Below, piece after piece: positions 2,627 to 54,076 of a stretch of 64,000 bases of DNA. Location of the stretch: contig NC_090336.1 of NCBI RefSeq assembly GCF_035084215.1, forward strand, positions 31,806,001 to 31,870,000. Reading direction: 5' to 3'. The DNA is from Heptranchias perlo (taxonomy: Eukaryota). How positions within the stretch are numbered: position 1 is the stretch's first letter; each line of letters starts with the position of its first letter. The notes under the pieces are model-generated. The model did no database searches and was not told the origin of the DNA. It saw nothing but the letters and a program-made list of their open reading frames with translations. The translations under genes were made by a program, and so were the position numbers.

Positions 2627-5424
2627 AATCATAGAATCATAGAATCATAGAATCATAGAAGTTACAACATGGAAACAGGCCCTTCGGCCCAACATGTCCA
2701 TGTCGCCCAGTTTATACCACTAAGCTAGTCCCAATTGCCTGCACTTGGCCCATATCCCTCGATACCCATCTTCCCCATGTAACTGTCCAAATGCTTTTTA
2801 AAAGACAAAATTGTACCCGCCTCTACTACTGCCTCTGGCAGCTCGTTCCAGACACTCACCACCCTTTGAGTGAAAAAATTGCCCCTCTGGATCCTTTTGT
2901 ATCTCTCCCCTCTCACCTTAAATCTGTGCCCCCTCGTTATAGACTCCCCTACCTTTGGGAAAAGATTTTGACTATCTACCTTATCTATGCCCCTCATTAT
3001 TTTATAGACTTCTATAAGATCACCCCTTAACCTCCTACTCTCCAGGGAATAAAGTCCCAGTCTGTCTAACCTCTCCCTGTAAGTCAAACCATCAAGTCCC
3101 GGTAGCATCCTAGTAAATCTTTTCTGCACTCTTTCTAGTTTAATAATATCCTTTCTATAATAGGGTGACCAGAACTGTACACAGTACTCCAAGTGTGGCC
3201 TCACCAATGCCCTGTACAACTTCAACAAGACATCCCAACTCCTGCATTCAATGTTCTGACCAATGAAACCAAGCATGCTGAATGCCTTCTTCACCACCCT
3301 ATCCACCTGTGACTCCACTTTCAAGGAGCTATGAATCTGTACTCCTAGATCTCTTTGTTCTATAACTCTCCCCAACGCCCTACCATTAACGGAGTAGGTC
3401 CTGGCCCGATTCGATCTACCAAAATGCATCACCTCACATTTATCTAAATTAAACTCCATCTGCCATTCATCGGCCCACTGGCCCAATTTATCAAGATCCC
3501 GTTGCAATCCTAGATAACCTTCTTCACTGTCCACAATGCCACCAATCTTGGTGTCATCTGCAAACTTACTAACCATGCCTCCTAAATTCTCATCCAAATC
3601 ATTAATATAAATAACAAATAACAGCGGACCCAGCACCGATCCCTGAGGCACACCGCTGGACACAGGCATCCAGTTTGAAAAACAACCCTCGACAACCACC
3701 CTCTGTCTTCTGTCGTCAAGCCAATTTTGTATCCAATTGGCTACCTCACCTTGGATCCCATGAGATTTAACCTTATGTAACAACCTACCATGCGGTACCT
3801 TGTCAAATGCTTTGCTGAAGTCCATGTAGACCACGTCTACTGCACAGCCCTCATCTATCTTCTTGGTTACCCCTTCAAAAAACTCAATCAAATTCGTGAG
3901 ACATGATTTTCCTCTCACAAAACCATGCTGACTGTTCCTAATTAGTCCCTGCCTCTCCAAATGCCTGTAGATTCTGTCCCTCAGAATACCCTCTAACAAC
4001 TTACCCACTACAGATGTCAGGCTCACTGGTCTGTAGTTCCCAGGCTTTTCCCTGCCGCCCTTCTTAAACAAAGGCACAACATTTGCTACCCTCCAATCTT
4101 CAGGCACCTCACCTGTAGCGGTGGATGATTCAAATATCTCTGCTAGGGGACCCGCAATTTCCTCCCTAACCTCCCATAACGTCCTCGGATACATTTCATC
4201 AGGTCCCGGAGATTTATCTACCTTGATGCGCGTTAAGACTTCCAGCACCTCCCTCTCTGTAATATGTACACTCCTCAAGACATCACTATTTATTTCCCCA
4301 AGTTCCCTAACATCCATGCCTTTCTCAACCGTAAATACCGATGTGAAATATTCATTCAGGATCTCACCCATCTCTTGTGGTTCCGCACATAGATGACCTT
4401 GTTGATCCTTAAGAGGCCCTACTCTCTCCCTAGTTACCCTTTTGCCCTTTATGTATTTGTAGAAGCTCTTTGGATTCACCTTTGCCTGATCTGCCAAAGC
4501 AATCTCATATCCCCTTTTTGCCCTCCTGATTTCTCTCTTAACTCTACTCCGGCAATCTCTATACTCTTCAAGGGATCCACTTGATCCCAGCTGCCTATGC
4601 ATGTCATATGCCTCCTTCTTATTTTTGACTAGTGCCTCAATCTCCCGAGTCATCCAAGGTTCCCTACTTCTACCAGCCTTGCCCTTCACTTTATAAGGAA
4701 TGTGCTTACCCTGAACCCTGGTTAACACACTTTTGAAAGCCTCCCACTTACCAGACGTCCCTTTGCCTGCCAACAGACTCTCCCAATCAACTTCTGAAAG
4801 TTCCTGTCTAATACCATCAAAATTGGCCTTTCCCCAATTTAGAATTTTAACTTTTGGGCCAGACCTATCCTTCTCCATAGCTATCTTAAAACTAATGGAA
4901 TTATGATCACTGGTCCCAAAGTGATCCCTCACTAACACTTCTGTCACCTGCCCTTCCTTATTTCCCAAGAGGAGGTCAAGTTTTGCCCCCTCTCTAGTCG
5001 GGCCATCCACATACTGAATGAGAAATTCCTCCTGAATACACTCAACAAATTTCTCTCCATCCAAGCCCCTAATGCTATGGCTGTCCCAGTCAATGTTGGG
5101 AAAGTTAAAGTCCCCTACTATTACCACCCTATTTTTCTTGCAGCTGTCTGTAATCTCCTTACATATTTGCTCCTCAATTTCCCGTTGACTATTTGGGGGT
5201 CTGTAGTACAATCCTATCAAAGTGATCTCTCCCTTCTTATTTTTCAGTTCTACCCATATGGACTCAGTGGGCGAACCCTCGGATATATCCCCTCTCACTA
5301 CTGCCGTGATGTTCTCCCTAATCAAGAACGCAACTCCCCCTCCTCTCTTACCTCCTGCTCTATCTTTCCTATAGCATCTGTACCCTGGAACATTGAGCTG
5401 CCAGTCCTGCCCCTCCCTTAGCCA
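2627..5424 (-). mobile_element. Young 5'-truncated CR1-clade LINE (HER1-like)
   Basis: (ATTCTATG)n tail at 2627-2660, short 3'UTR, uninterrupted ORF2. Confidence 0.95.
2725..5421 (-). CDS. CR1 ORF2: partial APE endonuclease plus reverse transcriptase
   Basis: EN motifs YYRPP, GDFNFP, LDLLL, SDHN; RT motifs PGNYRPVSLTS, DFSKAFDKV, GVPQGSVLGP, KFADD; no stops over ~900 codons. The first ~13 aa of the listed ORF come from flanking MITE DNA. Confidence 0.93.
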   Translation of the reverse strand, partial: LREGQDWQLNVPGYRCYRKDRAGGKRGGGVAFLIRENITAVVRGDISEGSPTESIWVELKNKKGEITLIGLYYRPPNSQREIEEQICKEITDSCKKNRVVIVGDFNFPNIDWDSHSIRGLDGEKFVECIQEEFLIQYVDGPTREGAKLDLLLGNKEGQVTEVLVRDHFGTSDHNSISFKIAMEKDRSGPKVKILNWGKANFDGIRQELSEVDWESLLAGKGTSGKWEAFKSVLTRVQGKHIPYKVKGKAGRSREPWMTREIEALVKNKKEAYDMHRQLGSSGSLEEYRDCRSRVKREIRRAKRGYEIALADQAKVNPKSFYKYIKGKRVTRERVGPLKDQQGHLCAEPQEMGEILNEYFTSVFTVEKGMDVRELGEINSDVLRSVHITEREVLEVLTRIKVDKSPGPDEMYPRTLWEVREEIAGPLAEIFESSTATGEVPEDWRVANVVPLFKKGGREKPGNYRPVSLTSVVGKLLEGILRDRIYRHLERQGLIRNSQHGFVRGKSCLTNLIEFFEGVTKKIDEGCAVDVVYMDFSKAFDKVPHGRLLHKVKSHGIQGEVANWIQNWLDDRRQRVVVEGCFSNWMPVSSGVPQGSVLGPLLFVIYINDLDENLGGMVSKFADDTKIGGIVDSEEGYLGLQRDLDKLGQWADEWQMEFNLDKCEVMHFGRSNRARTYSVNGRALGRVIEQRDLGVQIHSSLKVESQVDRVVKKAFSMLGFIGQNIECRSWDVLLKLYRALVRPHLEYCVQFWSPYYRKDIIKLERVQKRFTRMLPGLDGLTYRERLDRLGLYSLESRRLRGDLIEVYKIMRGIDKVDSQNLFPKVGESITRGHRFKVRGERYKRIQRGNFFTQRVVSVWNELPEAVVEAGTILSFKKHLDSYMGKMGIEGYGPSAGNWD

Positions 5425-6559
5425 ATAAAAAATTGTATGTTTTTTTCCATTTTCTTTGAACACTTCTGCTTATTAGTTAGAAAAATATTGGAGATGGGAA
5501 AAAAAATGCTGTTTGACTGACAGTCAAGAATCATCCAATTCATGAGTCTTTTCACTTTCCAATTGGCATGGGAAGGCGGTGCGTCACGAGCATGGGTGTG
5601 TTGGGCGAGCAATGGCAGGAGCATGGAGGAGGAGCAGTTGGAGGCAGGACATCATGTGATGAAACATTCAACTAGAGTTGGCAACCCTATGGAAAGCAGG
5701 AAATGCAGGAGAGATACAGAGATAGCGATAGGGTGGAACAATCCCCTCTGCCCCCATTAGTGCCACAGAATTGGCAGGAGGCAGCCAAAAAATCTAGGCC
5801 TCAGCGCCTGCTCAGGCCTGTCCTCTGTTTGACATGGTCACTTTAGCCCTTCTATTACCGTTCATTTGTAATGGGGGAGTCCTTCCAAGCTCACAACCTA
5901 CAGATACACATTGAGATACTTTTCATTACCGCCTCTTATCTCGCATGTTGGGCACAGTTGGATAGAATAAAAGCAGTTTATTGCAACACAGAAACAGATT
6001 ATCAATTATTACACCAAGCCCACAAGCCATACTGGAATTAAGCTCAACAATACTCATAATTAGATGTGTTTCAACAGGCTCCAATCTGCATTCAACTGAG
6101 CAGGGCACATTGAACCAAATAAATCCTCTTGTTTCATGCACAATGGCATCTCAACTTACCAGCAGCATTCTACGCATCACTGAACCTGGTGTCAAAATAC
6201 CCCTTAAATATTCACATTTTCTCAATATCTGGTGGAAGAGACATTAAGGTAGATCTTGACTTTGTGCGATGTATAAAATGAATAATAGCGAGGCGGCAGC
6301 CGGTTTTACATCTCTCCCGATTTTTATTTCCATTGAAGTCATTTCTCAGTAACATCCCCATTTTTTCTAGTACTACTGCAGCCAATGAAGTAAAACGATG
6401 CAGCTGGAGCCAAAAGTCAGTTCTCCAACTGCTCTATCAAAAACCTTCCAAATTCTGTCAAAAAAATGACTCCAAAAATCCCCAGCAGCCTAAAACGACT
6501 AGCCAGAAGCTTAGCTTAATGGAGGTAGGGATCCCTTTAAAGATCGCTGCTTCAGACTG

Positions 6560-11922: not shown

Positions 11923-13352
11923 CTTCTGCTTCATTATAATGGGAATAATGGGTCTGCATCTAAACCATTTACATCACCTGGGAAAGCTCGAGACAATTCC
12001 AGGGCAGCACAAGGGTATTGGAGGGGCATGGGGAAAGGGACCCAATGTAATGGGTCTCTGGCCCATTTTCCTCTTTACTGTGTGTGGGGAACATCGATTC
12101 CCCATGCAGTGAAGAGGAAAATCTACCCTCTTTGTGGGTATGCTTGTTCAAACACCTGTGGTCAAAAAATTGGACCACAGTTCCCTTATCAGAAAATAGA
12201 AACCATCACATTAATTGCCATGATGTAAATTTTATGGCAGTTGATACTAATAAAGTAGCTGCATCTTTACCAAATGATGTGTTATCAAATGGGGTAGATA
12301 AAGTTTATAAATCTGAATTTATAAATCTGCATTAGCAAAGATTTTTGAAGGGAAAATGCCATCCTACTGTCCTCTGAGGAAGTTTAGTCAATAAGTCAAA
12401 GCATTGAAGAATTCTTGGAACAACTTGTTCAAACTAGTTGCAGCAAGACAGAAGAGGAAAAAATTGATGACTCCATTAAAAGGGAAGGTGCCTGACTCAA
12501 GGAATTATCTTGTGATAAATATGAGAAGCCCAATCTGCAGGACAGAGCATTGTTCTAAGCTGAAGTTGAACCTTAAGCAAATAGAAAATGTGCAACAAAA
12601 ATTTGATATTAAACACTGGAAAATCATTGGCTAGTAAGTAAAATTTATCGCATCTAAACCTGTTGAACATTAATCGCCCGTATCTTCCACAATCCATTTC
12701 AACACAGGATATTTATTACAGCAGAGCCTGTAAAACATTTTGGGGGGATGAATTTCCACCAGTCTGCCGTAACCCCAAGAAAAAAAAATCACATAAAACA
12801 TCAGTCTGGACTGAATTCAAATCTGGGTAAAATAGAGGAGAAAGCCATTCCTCAAATCAGTTTTTAATAAGGCTTCATTTTGATTTTACAGACAGAACAG
12901 TTCCTTTAAAAAAAATCACCAAACGGTTGAATAATTCACCAGTATGAATTCACATCAGCAATCATTCACCGACTGATCACAACTTTTTTAGTTGATTCAG
13001 TTAAAAAAAATACATTTTATCATGCAATATTTTAAAATTATTTTAGTAATTTTTGTGCTCAACAGGGTGACAGGTATCAGTGATGGGGAACAGAGAATTT
13101 TCTTTCAATATTTATTCACTTTCGCTGTCATTATTAATGACTCTTAGGAGAATTCCCCTATGCTGCCCCAATAACATGCCTTAACCTGAACTTCAGAACA
13201 GCATCTCCAACTGCATTAATGCGACATTTCGATTTCCCACAACAGCGACTTTTGCAGCTTCTAAGTGTGATTGCTAATCTGATACAACATTAGTACTGAG
13301 TTATGGGCACTGTTTGTATTGAACTTGCTTTCCGCTGGGTTGGGAGGAATAG

Positions 13353-13450
13353 AGAAAACATTTGCCTGAGGAAGGAGAAAATCTCCGAAAGCTTGTGAAT
13401 TTAAAATAAAATTGCTGGACTATAACTTGGTGTTGTAAAATTGTTTACAA
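13353..13450 (+). mobile_element. Penelope-like element terminal (pLTR-type) fragment
   Basis: 98-bp insert between perfect 13-bp direct repeats TTGGGAGGAATAG (13340-13352, 13451-13463); carries CTGAGGAAGGAG...CTCCGAAAGCTTG, AATAAA and GGACTATAACTTGGTGTTGT. Confidence 0.75.
13360..13400 (+). ncRNA. Minimal type I hammerhead ribozyme motif
   Basis: Stem I AUUUGC/GUGAAU (two G-U pairs), core CUGAGGA(A), stem II GGAGA-AAA-UCUCC, GAAA, palindromic AGCU stem III. Confidence 0.7.
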
Positions 13451-13548
13451 TTGGGAGGAATAGGCATTTAGTTTGGATTGGTACTTGGAAGTAGTGTTCC
13501 CAATAGGTCATTGCTGGATCCATTTTTGCTCTCAAAGTATATATGTAT

Positions 13549-13555
13549 CTGTGTG

Positions 13556-13602
<47 letters not shown>

Positions 13603-13630
13603 ATAAATTATATATATTATATACACACAC
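13549..13630. repeat. (GT)n microsatellite with AT/AC flank
   Basis: Direct reading. Confidence 0.95.
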
Positions 13631-13758
13631 AAGAATATATGATTTGTATTTGAGCATAGGGAACATAATATCATAATTTGCAGACAACACAAAGGTAAAG
13701 CAGGAGGATTGTATAAGAAGGGGGAAAATGAGAGGATAGTAGACTGGGCAGATGGGTG

Positions 13759-46974: not shown

Positions 46975-49600
46975 CAAGTGAAACTCTCCAATATTTGCTG
47001 CCTTAGAGCTCTAGTAGATAGCAGCATTGCTGGGCTTTCTGCTTCCTCTGGAGTATCTGCTTCTTCATCCCCTTTTTGTTATTCTTCCTCCAGTTCTTGC
47101 TCCTCTGACAGCTCCAAGGCTTTCCCCCTTTGTATTGCAAAGTTGTGCAGCATGCATCAGATGACTACGAAGCTTGAGACTCACTCGAGACTTGTATTGA
47201 AGAACGCCTCCAGATCTGTCCAGGAAATGGAACCTTTGCTTTAAGGCCCCAATGGTCTGCTCTATCAGAACTCTTGTTCTTGCATGCGTCTTGTTATATC
47301 AAAGCTCCGCATCTGTGCCCAGGTTCCTGACAGGAGTCGTGAACCAAGTGTTGAAGGGATACCCCTTGTCCCCAAGCAGCCAGCCTCTGACCTGATGATC
47401 TGGGTGGACGAGAACCAGTATTGCGGAGTGGTGTATGATGAAAGCATCATGACTACTGCCAGGAGAGGGAGCACAGACCTGCCTGATTCTCTGCCCGCGG
47501 TCACAGGCAAGTTGAACTTTCAAGGAATGGAAGCCCTTCCCATTATAGAACATTGCTGGTTGGTGATAGGGAGCACACAGGACTACGTAGGTGCAGTCTA
47601 TGGTTCCCTGCACCTGTGGGAATCTAGCAATTCTGGCAAATCCTACAGCTCTTTTCTCTTTCTCGATAGCCTCCATGGGGAAGGCGATGGATCCTTGCCG
47701 CTTCGCAAAGAAACTGCCTGCTGGAACTGTGCTGAAGACTTGTGCTCCAGAATTAGCTGCGCCTCTATCCAAGCTGTTCCAGTACGGCTACAACACTGGC
47801 ATCTACCCGACAATGTGGAAAATTGCCCAGGTATGTCCTGTCCACAAAAAGCTGGACAAATCCAATCCAGCCAATTACCGCCCCATCAGTCTACTCTCAA
47901 TCATCAGCAAAGTGATGGAAGGTGTCATCGACAGTGCTATCAAGCGGCACTTACTCACCAATAACCTGCTCACCGATGCTCAGTTTGGGTTCCGCCAGGA
48001 CCACTCGGCTCCAGAACTCATTACAGCCTTGGTCCAAACATGGACAAAAGAGCTGAATTCCAGAGGTGAGGTGAGAGTGACTGCCCTTGACATCAAGGCA
48101 GCATTTGACCGAGTGTGGCACCAAGGAGCCCTAGTAAAATTGAAGTCAATGGGAATCAGGGGGAAAACTCTCCAGTGGCTGGAGTCATACCGAGCACAAA
48201 GGAAGATGGTAGTGGTTGTTGGAGGCCAATCATCTCAGCCCCAGGGCGTTGCTGCAGGAGTTCCTCAGGGCAGTGTCCCAGGCCCAACCATCTTCAGCTG
48301 CTTCATCATTGACCTTCCCTCCATCATAAGGTCAGAAATGGGGATGTTCGCTGATGACTGCACAGTGTTCAGTTCCATTCGCAACCCCTCAAATAATGAA
48401 GCAGTCCGAGCCCGCATGCAGCAAGACCTGGACAACATCCAGGCTTGGGCTCATAAGTGGCAAGTAACATTCGCGCCAGATAAGTGCCAGGCAATGACCA
48501 TCTCCAACAAGAGAGAGTCTAACCACCTCCCCCTGACATTCAACGGCACTACCATCACCGAATCCCCGACCATCAACATCCTGGGGGTCACCATTGACCA
48601 GAAACTTAACTGGACCAGCCATATAAATACTGTGGCTACGAGAGCAGGTCAGAGGCTGGGTATTCTGCGGCGTGTGACTCACCTCCTGACTCCCCAAAGC
48701 CTTTCCACCATCTACAAGGCACAAGTCAGGAGTGTGATGGAATACTCTCCACTTGCTTGGATGAGTGCAGCTCCAACAACACTCAAGAAGCTCGACACCA
48801 TCCAAGATAAAGCAGCCCGCTTGATTGGCACCCCATCCACCACACTAAACATTCACTCCCTTCACCACCGGCGCACTGTGGCTGCAGTGTGTACCATCCA
48901 CAGGATGCACTGCAGCAACTCGCCAAGGCTTCTTCGACAGCACCTCCCAAACCCGCGACCTCTACCACATAGAAGGACAAGAGCAGCAGGCACATGGGAA
49001 CAACACCACCTGCACGTTCCCCTCCAAGTCACACACCATACCGACTTGGAAATATATCGCCGTTCCTTCATTGTCGCTGGGTCAAAATCCTGGAACTCCC
49101 TTCCTAACAGCACTGTGGGAGAACCGTCACCACACGGACTGCAGCGGTTCAAGAAGGCGGCTCACCACCACCTTCTCGAGGGCAATTAGGGATGGGCAAT
49201 AAATGCTGTCCTCGCCAGCGACGCCCACATCCCGTGAACAAATAAAAAAAAAGAAAAAAATTTACTTACGTTGCTATTGTCCCTTGATGGAGTCTGGGAT
49301 GACCCAAAGGCATAAAAGTTGAGAGTTACAGTGACTTTCACCGCCACAGGCAGCACTATGGTGCTATCGGTGACACAGTTCAGTCACTGCCTCCCCGCTG
49401 AACTGGACCCACTTGACACACTGCTCCTCTGTCAGGTTCAGGTGAGAAAGTTGGTTTCTGAAGACCCACATGCCGTAAAGCCTCCTGCACCCTCCCCTTC
49501 TTCGCCCTCTTCTAGCAGTCTCTCCAGGTCTGTGCTGCCTTCATTGGTGCTGCTGCTCTTCCTCCTCATTTGGCAGCCTCAAAAGCAACCCAAGCAGCAT
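46975..49600 (-). pseudogene. HARBI1-like PIF/Harbinger DDE transposase, split by LINE at 47729-49260
   Basis: N-part LNLTEEQCV...LPVAVKVTVTLNFYAFGSSQ (49270-49450); core FPQVQGTIDCTYV, YNGKGFHSLKVQLACD, PGSSHDAFI, WLLGDKGYP (47299-47720). Confidence 0.88.
47729..49260 (+). mobile_element. LINE family B, 5'-truncated, open RT frame to the stop at 49189
   Basis: NPANYRPISLLS, DIKAAFDRV, GVPQGS, MFADD; A-rich tail. Confidence 0.95.
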
Positions 49601-51531: not shown

Positions 51532-52601
51532 TTTTTTTATTCGTTCATGGGATGTGGGCATCGCTGGCAAGGCCAGCATTTATTGCCCATCCCTAATTGC
51601 CCCTGAGAAGGCGGTGGTGAGCCGCCTTCTTAAACCGCTGCAGTCCGTGTGGTGAAGGTTCTCCCACAGTGCTGTTAGGTAGGGAGTTCCAGGATTTTGA
51701 TCCAGCGACGATGAAGGAACGGCGATATATTTCCAAGTCGGGATGGTGTGTGACTTGGAGTGGAACATGCAGGTGGTGTTGTTCCCATGTGCCTGCTGCC
51801 CTTGTCCTTCTAGGTGGTAGAGGTCGCGGGTTTGGGAGGTGCTGTCGAAGAAGCTTTGGCGAGTTGCTGCAGTGCATACTGTGGATGGTACACACTGCAG
51901 CCACAGTGCACCGGTGGTGAAGGGAGTGAATGTTTAGGGTGGTGGATGGGGTACCAATCAAGCGGGCTGCTTTATCTTGGATGGTGTCGAGCTTCTTGAG
52001 TGTTGTTGGAGCTGCACTCATCCAGGCAAGTGGAGAGTATTCCATCATAATCCTGACTTGCGCCTTGTAGATGGTGGAAAGGGTTTGGGGAGTCAGGAGG
52101 TGAGTCACTCGCCGCAGAATACCCAGCCTCTGACCTGCTCTTGTAGCCACAGTATTTATATGGCTGGTCCAGTTAAGTTTCTGGTCAATGGTGACCCCCA
52201 GGGTGTTGATGGTGGAGGATTCGGCGATGGTAATGCGGTTGAATGTCAAGGGGAGGTAATTAGACTCTCTCTTGTTGGAGATGGTCTTTGCCTGGCACTT
52301 GTTTGGCACAAATGTTACTTGCCACTTATCAGCCCAAGCTTGGATGTTGTCCAGGTCTTGCTGCATGCGGGCACAGACTGCTTCATTATCTGAGGCGTTG
52401 CAAATGGAACTGAACACTGTGCAATCATCAGCGAACATCCCCATTTTTGACCTTATGATGGAGGGAAGGTCATTGATGAAGCAGCTGAAGATGGTTGGGC
52501 CTAGGACACTGCCCTGAGGAACTCCTGCAGCAATGTCCTGAGGCTGAGATGATTGGCCTCCAACAACCACTTCCATCTTCCTTTGTGCTAGGTGTGACTC
52601 C
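51532..52601 (-). mobile_element. LINE family B, 5'-truncated, open frame
   Basis: GVPQGSVLGP, MFADD through to ...KKAAHHRLLRGN*; tail at 51532-51560. Confidence 0.94.
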
Positions 52602-54076
52602 TCAGCAGGATAGACAGTGCAATCTAACATTCCCATTTATTAGTCAAGTGACCACTATAATGTATGTCAGGTATCACATCTCAAGGGGTTCAAATAAAAC
52701 ATTCTCCATCTTTGTCACAAGGTTGTTGACATCAAAATCAGGTTGTAAGATTCTGCAACCTGCTCAATAAGAGTTGGGGAGCTGTGGGATGAAACATGGA
52801 AAAATTGGGGCAGGAAGAAAGAGCTTCAAACTTAGTTTTTAAAAAACTGTTTGCAAATAAATGAATGAAAATGAAATATAATCAATATACTGGAGTGAGA
52901 CACATTTAGGCTGGTCCTTCAGAAAAATACACAACCAGACATTCTGCTCCACCTTGGGGTAAAATTCTGGTGCAGTTGAAGTGGAGGCACTGGAATTTGG
53001 CGTGGAACCTGGAACTGCTTGGTTTCTACCCCTTCGGTTCACCAGTAGCAAATTCAGATCAGAAGTGGTGGTAATGGTAGTTTCCTCTGCCTGTTCTCTA
53101 TACATCCCAGCGGCAGTTTGGGGTTATTTCCCAACTACCCCAGGCCTCTGGTAGGCCCAACAAACTATACATCTGCTGAGAACAGGCGCAGGTGCTGTTC
53201 TGGGCCACAAGTGAGCCCAACAAAGATGAGTTGTAATGGCAAATGATCCCAGAGAGATGGATTGCTGTTCCTGTAATGGCCTACTATCAATGGAGTGGCC
53301 AGTGGAGAAAGCTTGATGCTGCAAGGTCTGTTGAAGTCCCATTGGAGAGACAAGCAGCCGTTCTGAAATCCCGGAAGGCATGTGAGATGGACACCCCTGT
53401 AGAGCCAATACTGGTGCGGGCACCTGCCCCCGATATGGTAATGACCCTATTCCTGGATTTGATCCCACTGACCCACCACAATTTTTATTCTATAGTCTTT
53501 GTAAAACGAGTTTGCTGTGGATTTCTTTCCATATATAAATGTACAGAAAGTCAAACAGCCTCTGTTGAGGCCAACATTAACCAAGTACTGCTCTGCATTA
53601 TCATTGTTGTATCATGCGACTGCCAATAGAGGAACTAGATGGACTTTGGTCTTTTTTCCTAAAGCAATTCCTATATCCTTATGTTCCACTCATTTACGTA
53701 TGATGATTATAAAAATATTACCACCATGTAATAGGAAGAAATTAATTTACCTGGTTAGGATTCACAACAAGATTAATATTAGTTAACTATAACCAACAAA
53801 AAAAGCAACTGACCTTTTTTCAGCACAGTATTAAGTCAATATTGTCTGTCTTTTGCAAACAGACTTAATATAGAAACAGAGACAGATGATCAAATTTCCC
53901 AGAAAATAAATGGGTACAAGAATTTCATAGGAAAGCATTAATTACTAATATCGCACTGCACAATTTCCTAAGAGTTCAAGATTACATTTTAAATACAAAA
54001 TAATTTTTCACTTAATACAGTAATTGCTGCTAAGAGATTTTAATTCATGTATTTTATTATACTAATTAGCACACGT

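What the first reader, a model, noticed from the sequence alone, without database searches (positions are those of the whole stretch)
13340..13463. 98-bp insertion that is little more than a hammerhead ribozyme plus poly(A) signal, with a perfect 13-bp TSD
Seen: direct repeats TTGGGAGGAATAG around a 98-bp insert that folds as stem I AUUUGC/GUGAAU, CUGAGGA(A), stem II GGAGA/UCUCC, GAAA and a palindromic AGCU stem III, followed by AATAAA. Known: Penelope-like retroelements carry minimal type I hammerheads in their pLTRs that cleave as dimers through a palindromic stem III. Inference: a recent insertion (identical TSD) of either a truncated Penelope end or a tiny non-autonomous ribozyme element; a single copy would need a partner in trans, with cleavage predicted after CUU at 13394.
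Basis: partly seen in the sequence, partly recalled or inferred. Interest (0 to 1): 0.7.

Follow-up and report, generated by a model that had tools for sequence, protein, structure and literature searches.

The report
Penelope stub marking its RNA start
This 98-base insert is an exact piece of the end of an ordinary, very abundant protein-coding Penelope-like jumping gene, not a ribozyme element of its own, and it begins at the spot 30 bases after a TATA-like box where about a thousand sister copies also stop, so it is likely a dead-end DNA copy of the uncut front end of that element's RNA.

Summary
In detail: 13-bp direct repeats flank a 98-bp insert with a minimal type I hammerhead motif and AATAAA. 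It is not a discrete mini-element. Window 13356-13453 is 100% identical to the terminal repeat of an intact 902-aa RT + GIY-YIG Penelope-like element (Neptune/Nematis type) found in 3.08-kb tandem units in this genome. One 29-mer occurs 47,490 times; only 32 places share this copy's 5' junction. 3' ends fall at two sites about 37 nt apart; 47 of 49 inverted pairs use one of each. 5' ends vary but drop sharply 29-30 nt after a TATA box in two subfamilies: 17% and 27% of copies are lost over two bases, against 2% and 8% over the next two. This copy starts there, 39 nt upstream of the predicted cut. Likely mechanism: reverse transcription starts inside the RNA and runs off its uncleaved 5' end. 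No RNA evidence of the start or of cleavage. The scan noted the same reading before, in this genome and others.

The parts
13340..13352 (+). Left copy of the target-site duplication (10-13 bp; first 3 bases are ambiguous)
13353..13355 (+). Three junction bases not colinear with the element; possibly re-copied from loop II of the hammerhead, or untemplated
   Evidence: origin is inference
13356..13450 (+). 95-nt piece of the pLTR of an intact Penelope-like element, from the modal 5' stop (30 nt after the first T of TATAAA in long copies) to 3' end site 1
13360..13400 (+). Minimal type I hammerhead motif: stem I 13360-13365/13395-13400, core 13366-13372, stem II 13374-13378/13382-13386, GAAA 13387-13390, palindromic AGCU 13390-13393; predicted cut after 13394
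   Evidence: activity untested
13405..13410 (+). AATAAA, followed by a GT-rich stretch at 13427-13436; candidate poly(A) signal of the element
   Evidence: function not shown
13431..13453 (+). Predicted short hairpin whose 3' base is end site 1 of the family; likely first internal start of reverse transcription
   Evidence: fold; 3' ends; role inferred from PMC11167929
13451..13463 (+). Right copy of the target-site duplication; 13451-13453 also match the element's continuation

Best explanation
The insert is a short, one-armed copy of the terminal repeat of an autonomous Penelope-like retroelement, likely made when the element's enzyme cut the target, started reverse transcription inside its own RNA and ran off the RNA's uncleaved 5' end after 95 bases. 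Shown: identity to the intact element, the target duplication, two fixed 3' end sites, and a sharp 5' stop 29-30 nt after a TATA box in two subfamilies. Inferred: that the stop is the transcription start; that 13356-13450 is the first 95 nt of a 131-nt leader with the hammerhead in its first 45 nt; that the template was not cleaved, since the copy runs 39 nt past the predicted cut; that longer copies come from read-through of tandem units or from a template jump. The copy has neither TATA box nor ORF and is likely dead.
For: Window 13356-13453 matches the unit of L093 at 98 of 98 bases, and an array of such units ends at the same base as the insert. The unit holds a 902-aa ORF with RVT_1 (E 3e-10) and a GIY-YIG match (E 2e-4, 22.0 bits, just under the 22.6 cut-off). 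3' ends of 174 arms: 90 at -5..+8, 75 at +33..+47, 2 between, 7 run into the ORF; two internal start sites that bound the tail were shown in vitro for the anole element (PMC11167929). Genome-wide exact counts as the pattern is extended upstream: subfamily A1 6,351, 5,250, 5,130; subfamily B 5,977, 4,363, 4,010; losses 17.3% vs 2.3% and 27.0% vs 8.1%. The stop lies 4 nt before stem I in A1 but 11 nt before it in B, yet 30 and 29 nt after the TATA T; in B it is the A of an initiator-like TCATTT (motif recalled). It is seen in one-armed copies too (4 of 15 A1 arms at -94; 2 of 9 B arms). In 17 of 30 loci with this copy's junction, both arms reach -94 with a fill between.
Against: No RNA data show the start: only contigs were available. 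Junction microhomology also makes peaks: 5 of 87 A1 arms end at a palindrome at -102, and 7 of the 15 arms at -94 are direct AAA/TTT folds, so part of the spike could be a joining preference. Only 15 of 87 A1 arms end exactly at -94 and 40 run beyond -130; the loss from -86 to -94 is also high (about 5% per two bases). 7 of 93 unselected arms end at -58..-48, near the predicted cut, against 3 at -79..-59, so some templates may be cleaved. D. virilis Penelope uses an internal, TATA-less-type promoter (PMC2377424), so a TATA promoter is not general. The empty site was not found.
Confidence: 0.7

Rival explanations
1. Same parent element, but the 5' stop is a pause or a joining hotspot on a longer RNA (AAA/TTT microhomology, or the foot of the hammerhead fold), not the RNA's start.
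For: 7 of 15 arms at -94 are direct AAA/TTT folds with a partner at -89; a palindrome at -102 gives 5 of 87 arms; 46 of 93 unselected arms end in the broad zone -105..-80 around the start of stem I.
Against: The stop keeps its distance from the TATA box, not from stem I, across two subfamilies with different upstream sequence; it occurs in one-armed copies and in both arms with a fill between.
Confidence: 0.24
2. A discrete non-autonomous ribozyme element (a mini-retrozyme or SINE-like unit) of about 98 nt that is transcribed and mobilised on its own and cleaves with a partner in trans.
For: 34 of 40 scored candidates match all 98 bases at 100% (includes this copy); many short copies start at one base.
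Against: Only 32 places share the 5' junction, and in 26 of 30 read the extra bases belong to a local duplication of element sequence. No diagnostic base separates it from the autonomous element. It lacks the TATA box and the ORF start, which the anole element needs on the template (first 172 nt of the ORF, PMC11167929). No regular short head-to-tail array: 8 same-strand neighbours under 1 kb, at irregular spacing, in the loci L031 onward.
Confidence: 0.04
3. The 5' end of the copy is set by ribozyme cleavage, or the direct repeats are chance.
For: A small excess of family ends near the predicted cut (7 of 93).
Against: This copy starts 39 nt upstream of the cut; none of the 7 starts exactly at -55; chance for the repeat is about 4e-5 and it sits exactly at the family's ends.
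Confidence: 0.02

Closest known systems
Insertions of endonuclease-bearing Penelope-like elements, Neptune/Nematis type (PMC8557442, passages; PMC3846280, passages)
   Same: pLTR, tandem units, 5' truncation, inverted 5' arm, optional 30-40-bp tail, variable target duplication, C-terminal GIY-YIG with two inner cysteines and the CX2-5CxxC linker.
   Different: This copy is one-armed and tail-less; the passages read describe truncation as variable and do not tie it to a fixed base after a TATA box. PMC3846280 favours self-priming on an antisense template for the inverted arms.
Minimal type I hammerheads of metazoan PLEs (PMC4209133, parts 1-2 of 4)
   Same: Core, unpaired base before stem II, G-C first pair of stem II, palindromic 15.2-16.2, most copies single and ascribed to truncated PLEs.
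   Different: Stem II is 5 bp and stem I 6 bp with two G-U pairs; activity of this variant is untested.
Anole element PAc, Poseidon clade (PMC11167929, parts 1-2 of 4)
   Same: Two internal start sites bounding the tail; both strands cut and extended; uncleaved RNA is the main template in vitro.
   Different: Different clade; there the ORF begins inside the hammerhead, here 131 nt after the inferred start and about 90 nt behind the ribozyme.
Non-LTR retrozymes (PMC7229834, passages; bioRxiv 10.64898/2026.07.22.740005, parts 1-2 of 5)
   Same: Non-coding, type I hammerhead, linked to PLE terminal repeats.
   Different: Retrozymes are tandem repeats with a hammerhead in each unit and give circular RNAs; this is a single stub identical to the coding element's end.

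Membership tests
EN+ Penelope-like element (parent) | Single ORF with RT and C-terminal GIY-YIG endonuclease | tested here: met
   902 aa; RVT_1 E 3e-10; GIY-YIG E 2e-4 on the last 120 aa, slightly under the curated cut-off; YIDD 532, DKG 296, VVY 790, YIG 805 with C796 and C800 between
EN+ Penelope-like element (parent) | Tandem units forming pLTRs, with inverted arms and an optional 30-40-bp tail | tested here: met
   3,081-bp units; two 3' end classes; 47 of 49 inverted pairs carry one of each
EN+ Penelope-like element (this copy) | Insert is pLTR sequence flanked by a target duplication | tested here: met
   98 of 98 identical; 10-13-bp duplication; empty site not seen
Neptune/Nematis type | [quoted passage not shown] | tested here: met
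   C753-X4-C758-X2-C761
Neptune versus Nematis clade | Placement in an RT tree with reference elements | not tested
   no reference sequences in hand
Penelope/Poseidon clade | Absence of the CX2-5CxxC linker | tested here: not met
   motif present; my early label 'Poseidon' was wrong
Minimal type I PLE hammerhead | Core CUGANGA..GAAA..UH, stems I and II, extra base before stem II, palindromic stem III | tested here: met
Minimal type I PLE hammerhead | Compensatory changes in the stems | tested here: inconclusive
   24 of 42 variants aligned; 96.6% of cells paired (slid controls 24-48%); one pair changes on both sides (GC 15, AU 3, GU 3, other 3); 415 of 500 shuffles reach one such pair
Minimal type I PLE hammerhead | Self-cleavage as a dimer | not testable with these tools
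   AGCU self-duplex only -2.5 kcal/mol, and the unconstrained dimer fold swaps stem II instead
Non-LTR retrozyme | Short tandem repeats with a hammerhead in each unit | tested here: not met
   single copy in the window; no regular short array in fetched loci; whole genome not scanned for arrays
Discrete non-autonomous element | Copies share both ends and form their own lineage | tested here: not met

The most novel reading that the evidence does not exclude
Penelope-like elements start reverse transcription so close to the front of their own mRNA that they mass-produce a strong-stop-like copy of the leader. Thousands of such stubs map the transcription start to the base from the genome alone and show that the ribozyme is uncut on the template. 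Inverted insertions would be two such copies, one primed from each target strand at a different fixed start site, and full-length copies would need a tandem read-through RNA or a jump.
Probability: 0.62. Interest if true: 0.5.

Novelty: new member of a known kind. Interest (0 to 1): 0.27.

Why it matters
The insert itself is ordinary debris of a very abundant retroelement. Its value is as one of many records of how Penelope-like elements copy themselves, a cycle that the papers read call undefined. If the fixed 5' stop is the RNA start, it explains why animal genomes hold masses of single minimal hammerheads without any ribozyme mini-element, argues that cleavage is not what defines these insertions, and gives a simple test (5' RACE, run-off assay) with a young, intact element. 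The scan has reached the same reading on other copies, so this copy adds counts, not a new idea.

Tried and rejected
Rfam scan: no hammerhead family hit at E up to 10; not taken as evidence against, as minimal forms lack stem III. RNA evidence: no RNA holder on record was listed; laying contigs of four runs on the window and four on the pLTR showed no spanning contig, no start, no poly(A) end among the rows shown and no empty site; uninformative. Paralogous empty site: the left flank is unique next to the insert; 28 other hits cover only an old repeat at about 13155-13280. PDB search with the ORF: one weak RT hit, E 0.84. Atlas search of the C-terminus: eukaryotic clusters, one set with GIY-YIG in 13% of members; a lead only. 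Covariation as proof of the fold: inconclusive; the core letters were imposed by my search pattern, and I left out 18 of 42 variants, most because a junction cuts stem I but some with a longer loop or a broken pair, which leans the count towards pairing. The first end-mapping used two references and misplaced some ends; it was redone with 14. The first DNA search selects for the exact junction and cannot be used for end statistics. The label Poseidon was dropped. Luense et al. on dimer cleavage is not held; I saw only a review's account of it (PMC6765202, passages).

Full report
Coordinates: 0 is window 13450, the last base of the insert; negative numbers run upstream in the element.

Observation. 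Stems I and II are in the minimum-energy fold, but the fold is not unusually stable (z -0.94), a loose core pattern turns up in 12 of 100 shuffles, and Rfam gives no hammerhead hit. The duplication is real: the 10 bases not shared with the element have a chance of about 4e-5.

What it is. The window lies in a 3.25-Gb genome. A 29-mer from the insert's 3' half occurs 47,490 times and this exact hammerhead variant (A1) 7,842 times. Following copies led to tandem units 3,081 bp apart with a 902-aa ORF. It has RT, a GIY-YIG domain just under the Pfam cut-off, and a C-X4-C-X2-C linker, which PMC8557442 (passages) gives as the mark of Neptune and Nematis elements. Units at other loci are 99.2-99.7% alike, so the family is young. 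Window 13356-13453 equals the unit's terminal repeat at 98 of 98 bases, and one array ends at the same base as the insert. The element's start codon lies 131 nt behind the base equal to 13356.

Ends. I mapped arms in two samples: an unselected one (the first 100 listed places of the 29-mer, all in the first 5.5 Mb of one contig, 93 after removing duplicates) and one picked by the A1 variant (70 loci or stretches covering most of the first 100 listed places; 97 arms, 87 of them A1). Neither is a random genome-wide sample. Ends beyond -130 were only binned, because extension fails at T-runs and locus edges. 3' ends are bimodal: of 174 arms, 90 at -5..+8, 75 at +33..+47, 2 between, 7 continue into the ORF. 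In 47 of 49 inverted pairs one arm ends at each site (P 2e-12 against a 50:50 draw). This matches the two internal start sites and the cutting of both strands shown for the anole element (PMC11167929). 5' ends of the 93 unselected arms: 1 above -48, 7 at -58..-48, 3 at -79..-59, 46 at -105..-80, 7 at -130..-106, 29 longer. Among 87 A1 arms the mode is -94 (15), then -89 (8) and -102 (5); 40 are longer than -130.

The fixed stop. Long copies carry TATAAA with its first T 30 nt before -94. Subfamily B has a different sequence between TATA and hammerhead, and its mode is at -101, 29 nt after the same T, on the A of an initiator-like word (the TATA spacing and initiator consensus are recalled knowledge). 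Genome-wide exact counts confirm both: A1 falls from 6,351 to 5,250 between -94 and -96 and only to 5,130 at -98; B falls from 5,977 to 4,363 and then to 4,010. These losses include point mutations. The stop keeps its distance from TATA and not from stem I (4 versus 11 nt). Against: 7 of the 15 A1 arms at -94 are direct AAA/TTT folds, palindromes make smaller peaks, and the zone -86 to -94 also loses about 5% per two bases. For: 4 of 15 A1 and 2 of 9 B arms at the stop are one-armed.

The exact 98-bp form is not a family. 34 of 40 scored candidates match it in full, but only 32 places genome-wide carry the same junction with a G in front. Of 30 read, 26 have it as part of a local duplication of element sequence, and in 17 an inverted arm also reaches -94 (the script's inverted flag missed at least three loci that are inverted by eye). 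Four, including this copy, have no such duplication. The three extra bases here may be re-copied from loop II or untemplated; this is not settled.

Hammerhead. Among 165 motif copies there are 42 variants. Position 7 of the core varies between G and C, as expected of a free position (recalled). On 24 variants, 96.6% of cells pair and one stem II pair swaps between G-C and A-U, which shuffles reach easily. The geometry is that of the minimal PLE hammerheads of PMC4209133, which cleave weakly and as dimers, and which that paper already reports as mostly single and probably from truncated PLEs. This copy spans the predicted cut, so its template was uncut or religated; the anole work found cleavage unnecessary for insertion in vitro. 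The small excess of ends near the cut is a weak hint of occasional cleavage; two pairs among those short arms belong to the same inversions and none starts exactly at -55.

Mechanism. Most likely (0.7): the element's protein nicks the target, starts copying at site 1 about 95 nt from the front of the mRNA, runs off the 5' end, and the end is joined to the other target strand, leaving a 10-13-bp duplication. When both strands prime, one at each site, an inverted insertion results. Identity, ends and the stop are shown; the transcription start, the state of the RNA and the joining step are inferred. That the insert derives from the autonomous element is near certain (about 0.95).

Literature and novelty. 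Read: PMC11167929 parts 1-2 of 4 and a word search of its three text supplements (no hits; its supplementary figures, which plot genomic coverage, were not seen and may show the 5' stop); PMC4209133 parts 1-2; bioRxiv 2026.07.22.740005 parts 1-2 of 5 (its supplements are closed); PMC2377424 parts 2-3 of 4; passages of PMC8557442, PMC3846280, PMC7229834, PMC6765202. A promoter in the pLTR is known, and PMC3846280 notes a putative TATA and initiator there. Searches listed no paper that links short copies to the transcription start, but two key reviews cited in those papers (Arkhipova 2006; Evgen'ev and Arkhipova 2005) were not read, so absence from print is not established. I noted the TATA idea, before seeing earlier scan notes; searches then showed the same reading many times, including a 95-base insert in this genome. 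These are unchecked AI notes and are not counted as support. Verdict: a new member of a known kind, interest 0.27.

Noticed in passing
L159, around 467-640: A subfamily B arm ending at site 2 is followed within 3 bases by an A1 arm starting exactly at -94, head to tail: a jump between two RNAs or an insertion into an earlier copy.
   Followed up: no
L187 (= L027), 1430-1600: The first 23 bases of the leader are repeated head to tail three times at an inversion point, as if re-copied repeatedly.
   Followed up: partly
L081/L082, L136, L143, L084/L085: Inversion points at short palindromes upstream of the modal stop (-102, -114), and three one-armed copies starting at -127 beside the TATA box.
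   Followed up: no
flanks of L011, L059, L098, L130, L161, L203; L036, L037, L101: Several independent insertions sit in the same short AT-rich words of what looks like another abundant repeat (identical right flanks); possible target preference.
   Followed up: no
window 2725-5469 (-), 47591-49189 (+), 51593-52636 (-): LINE-type frames: a 914-aa open frame with endonuclease and RT, and two RT fragments.
   Followed up: partly
window 13155-13280: Piece of an old dispersed repeat, 71-87% alike to 28 other places.
   Followed up: no
window 13545-13631: GT/AT microsatellite next to the insert; gives spurious microRNA-family scores below threshold.
   Followed up: no
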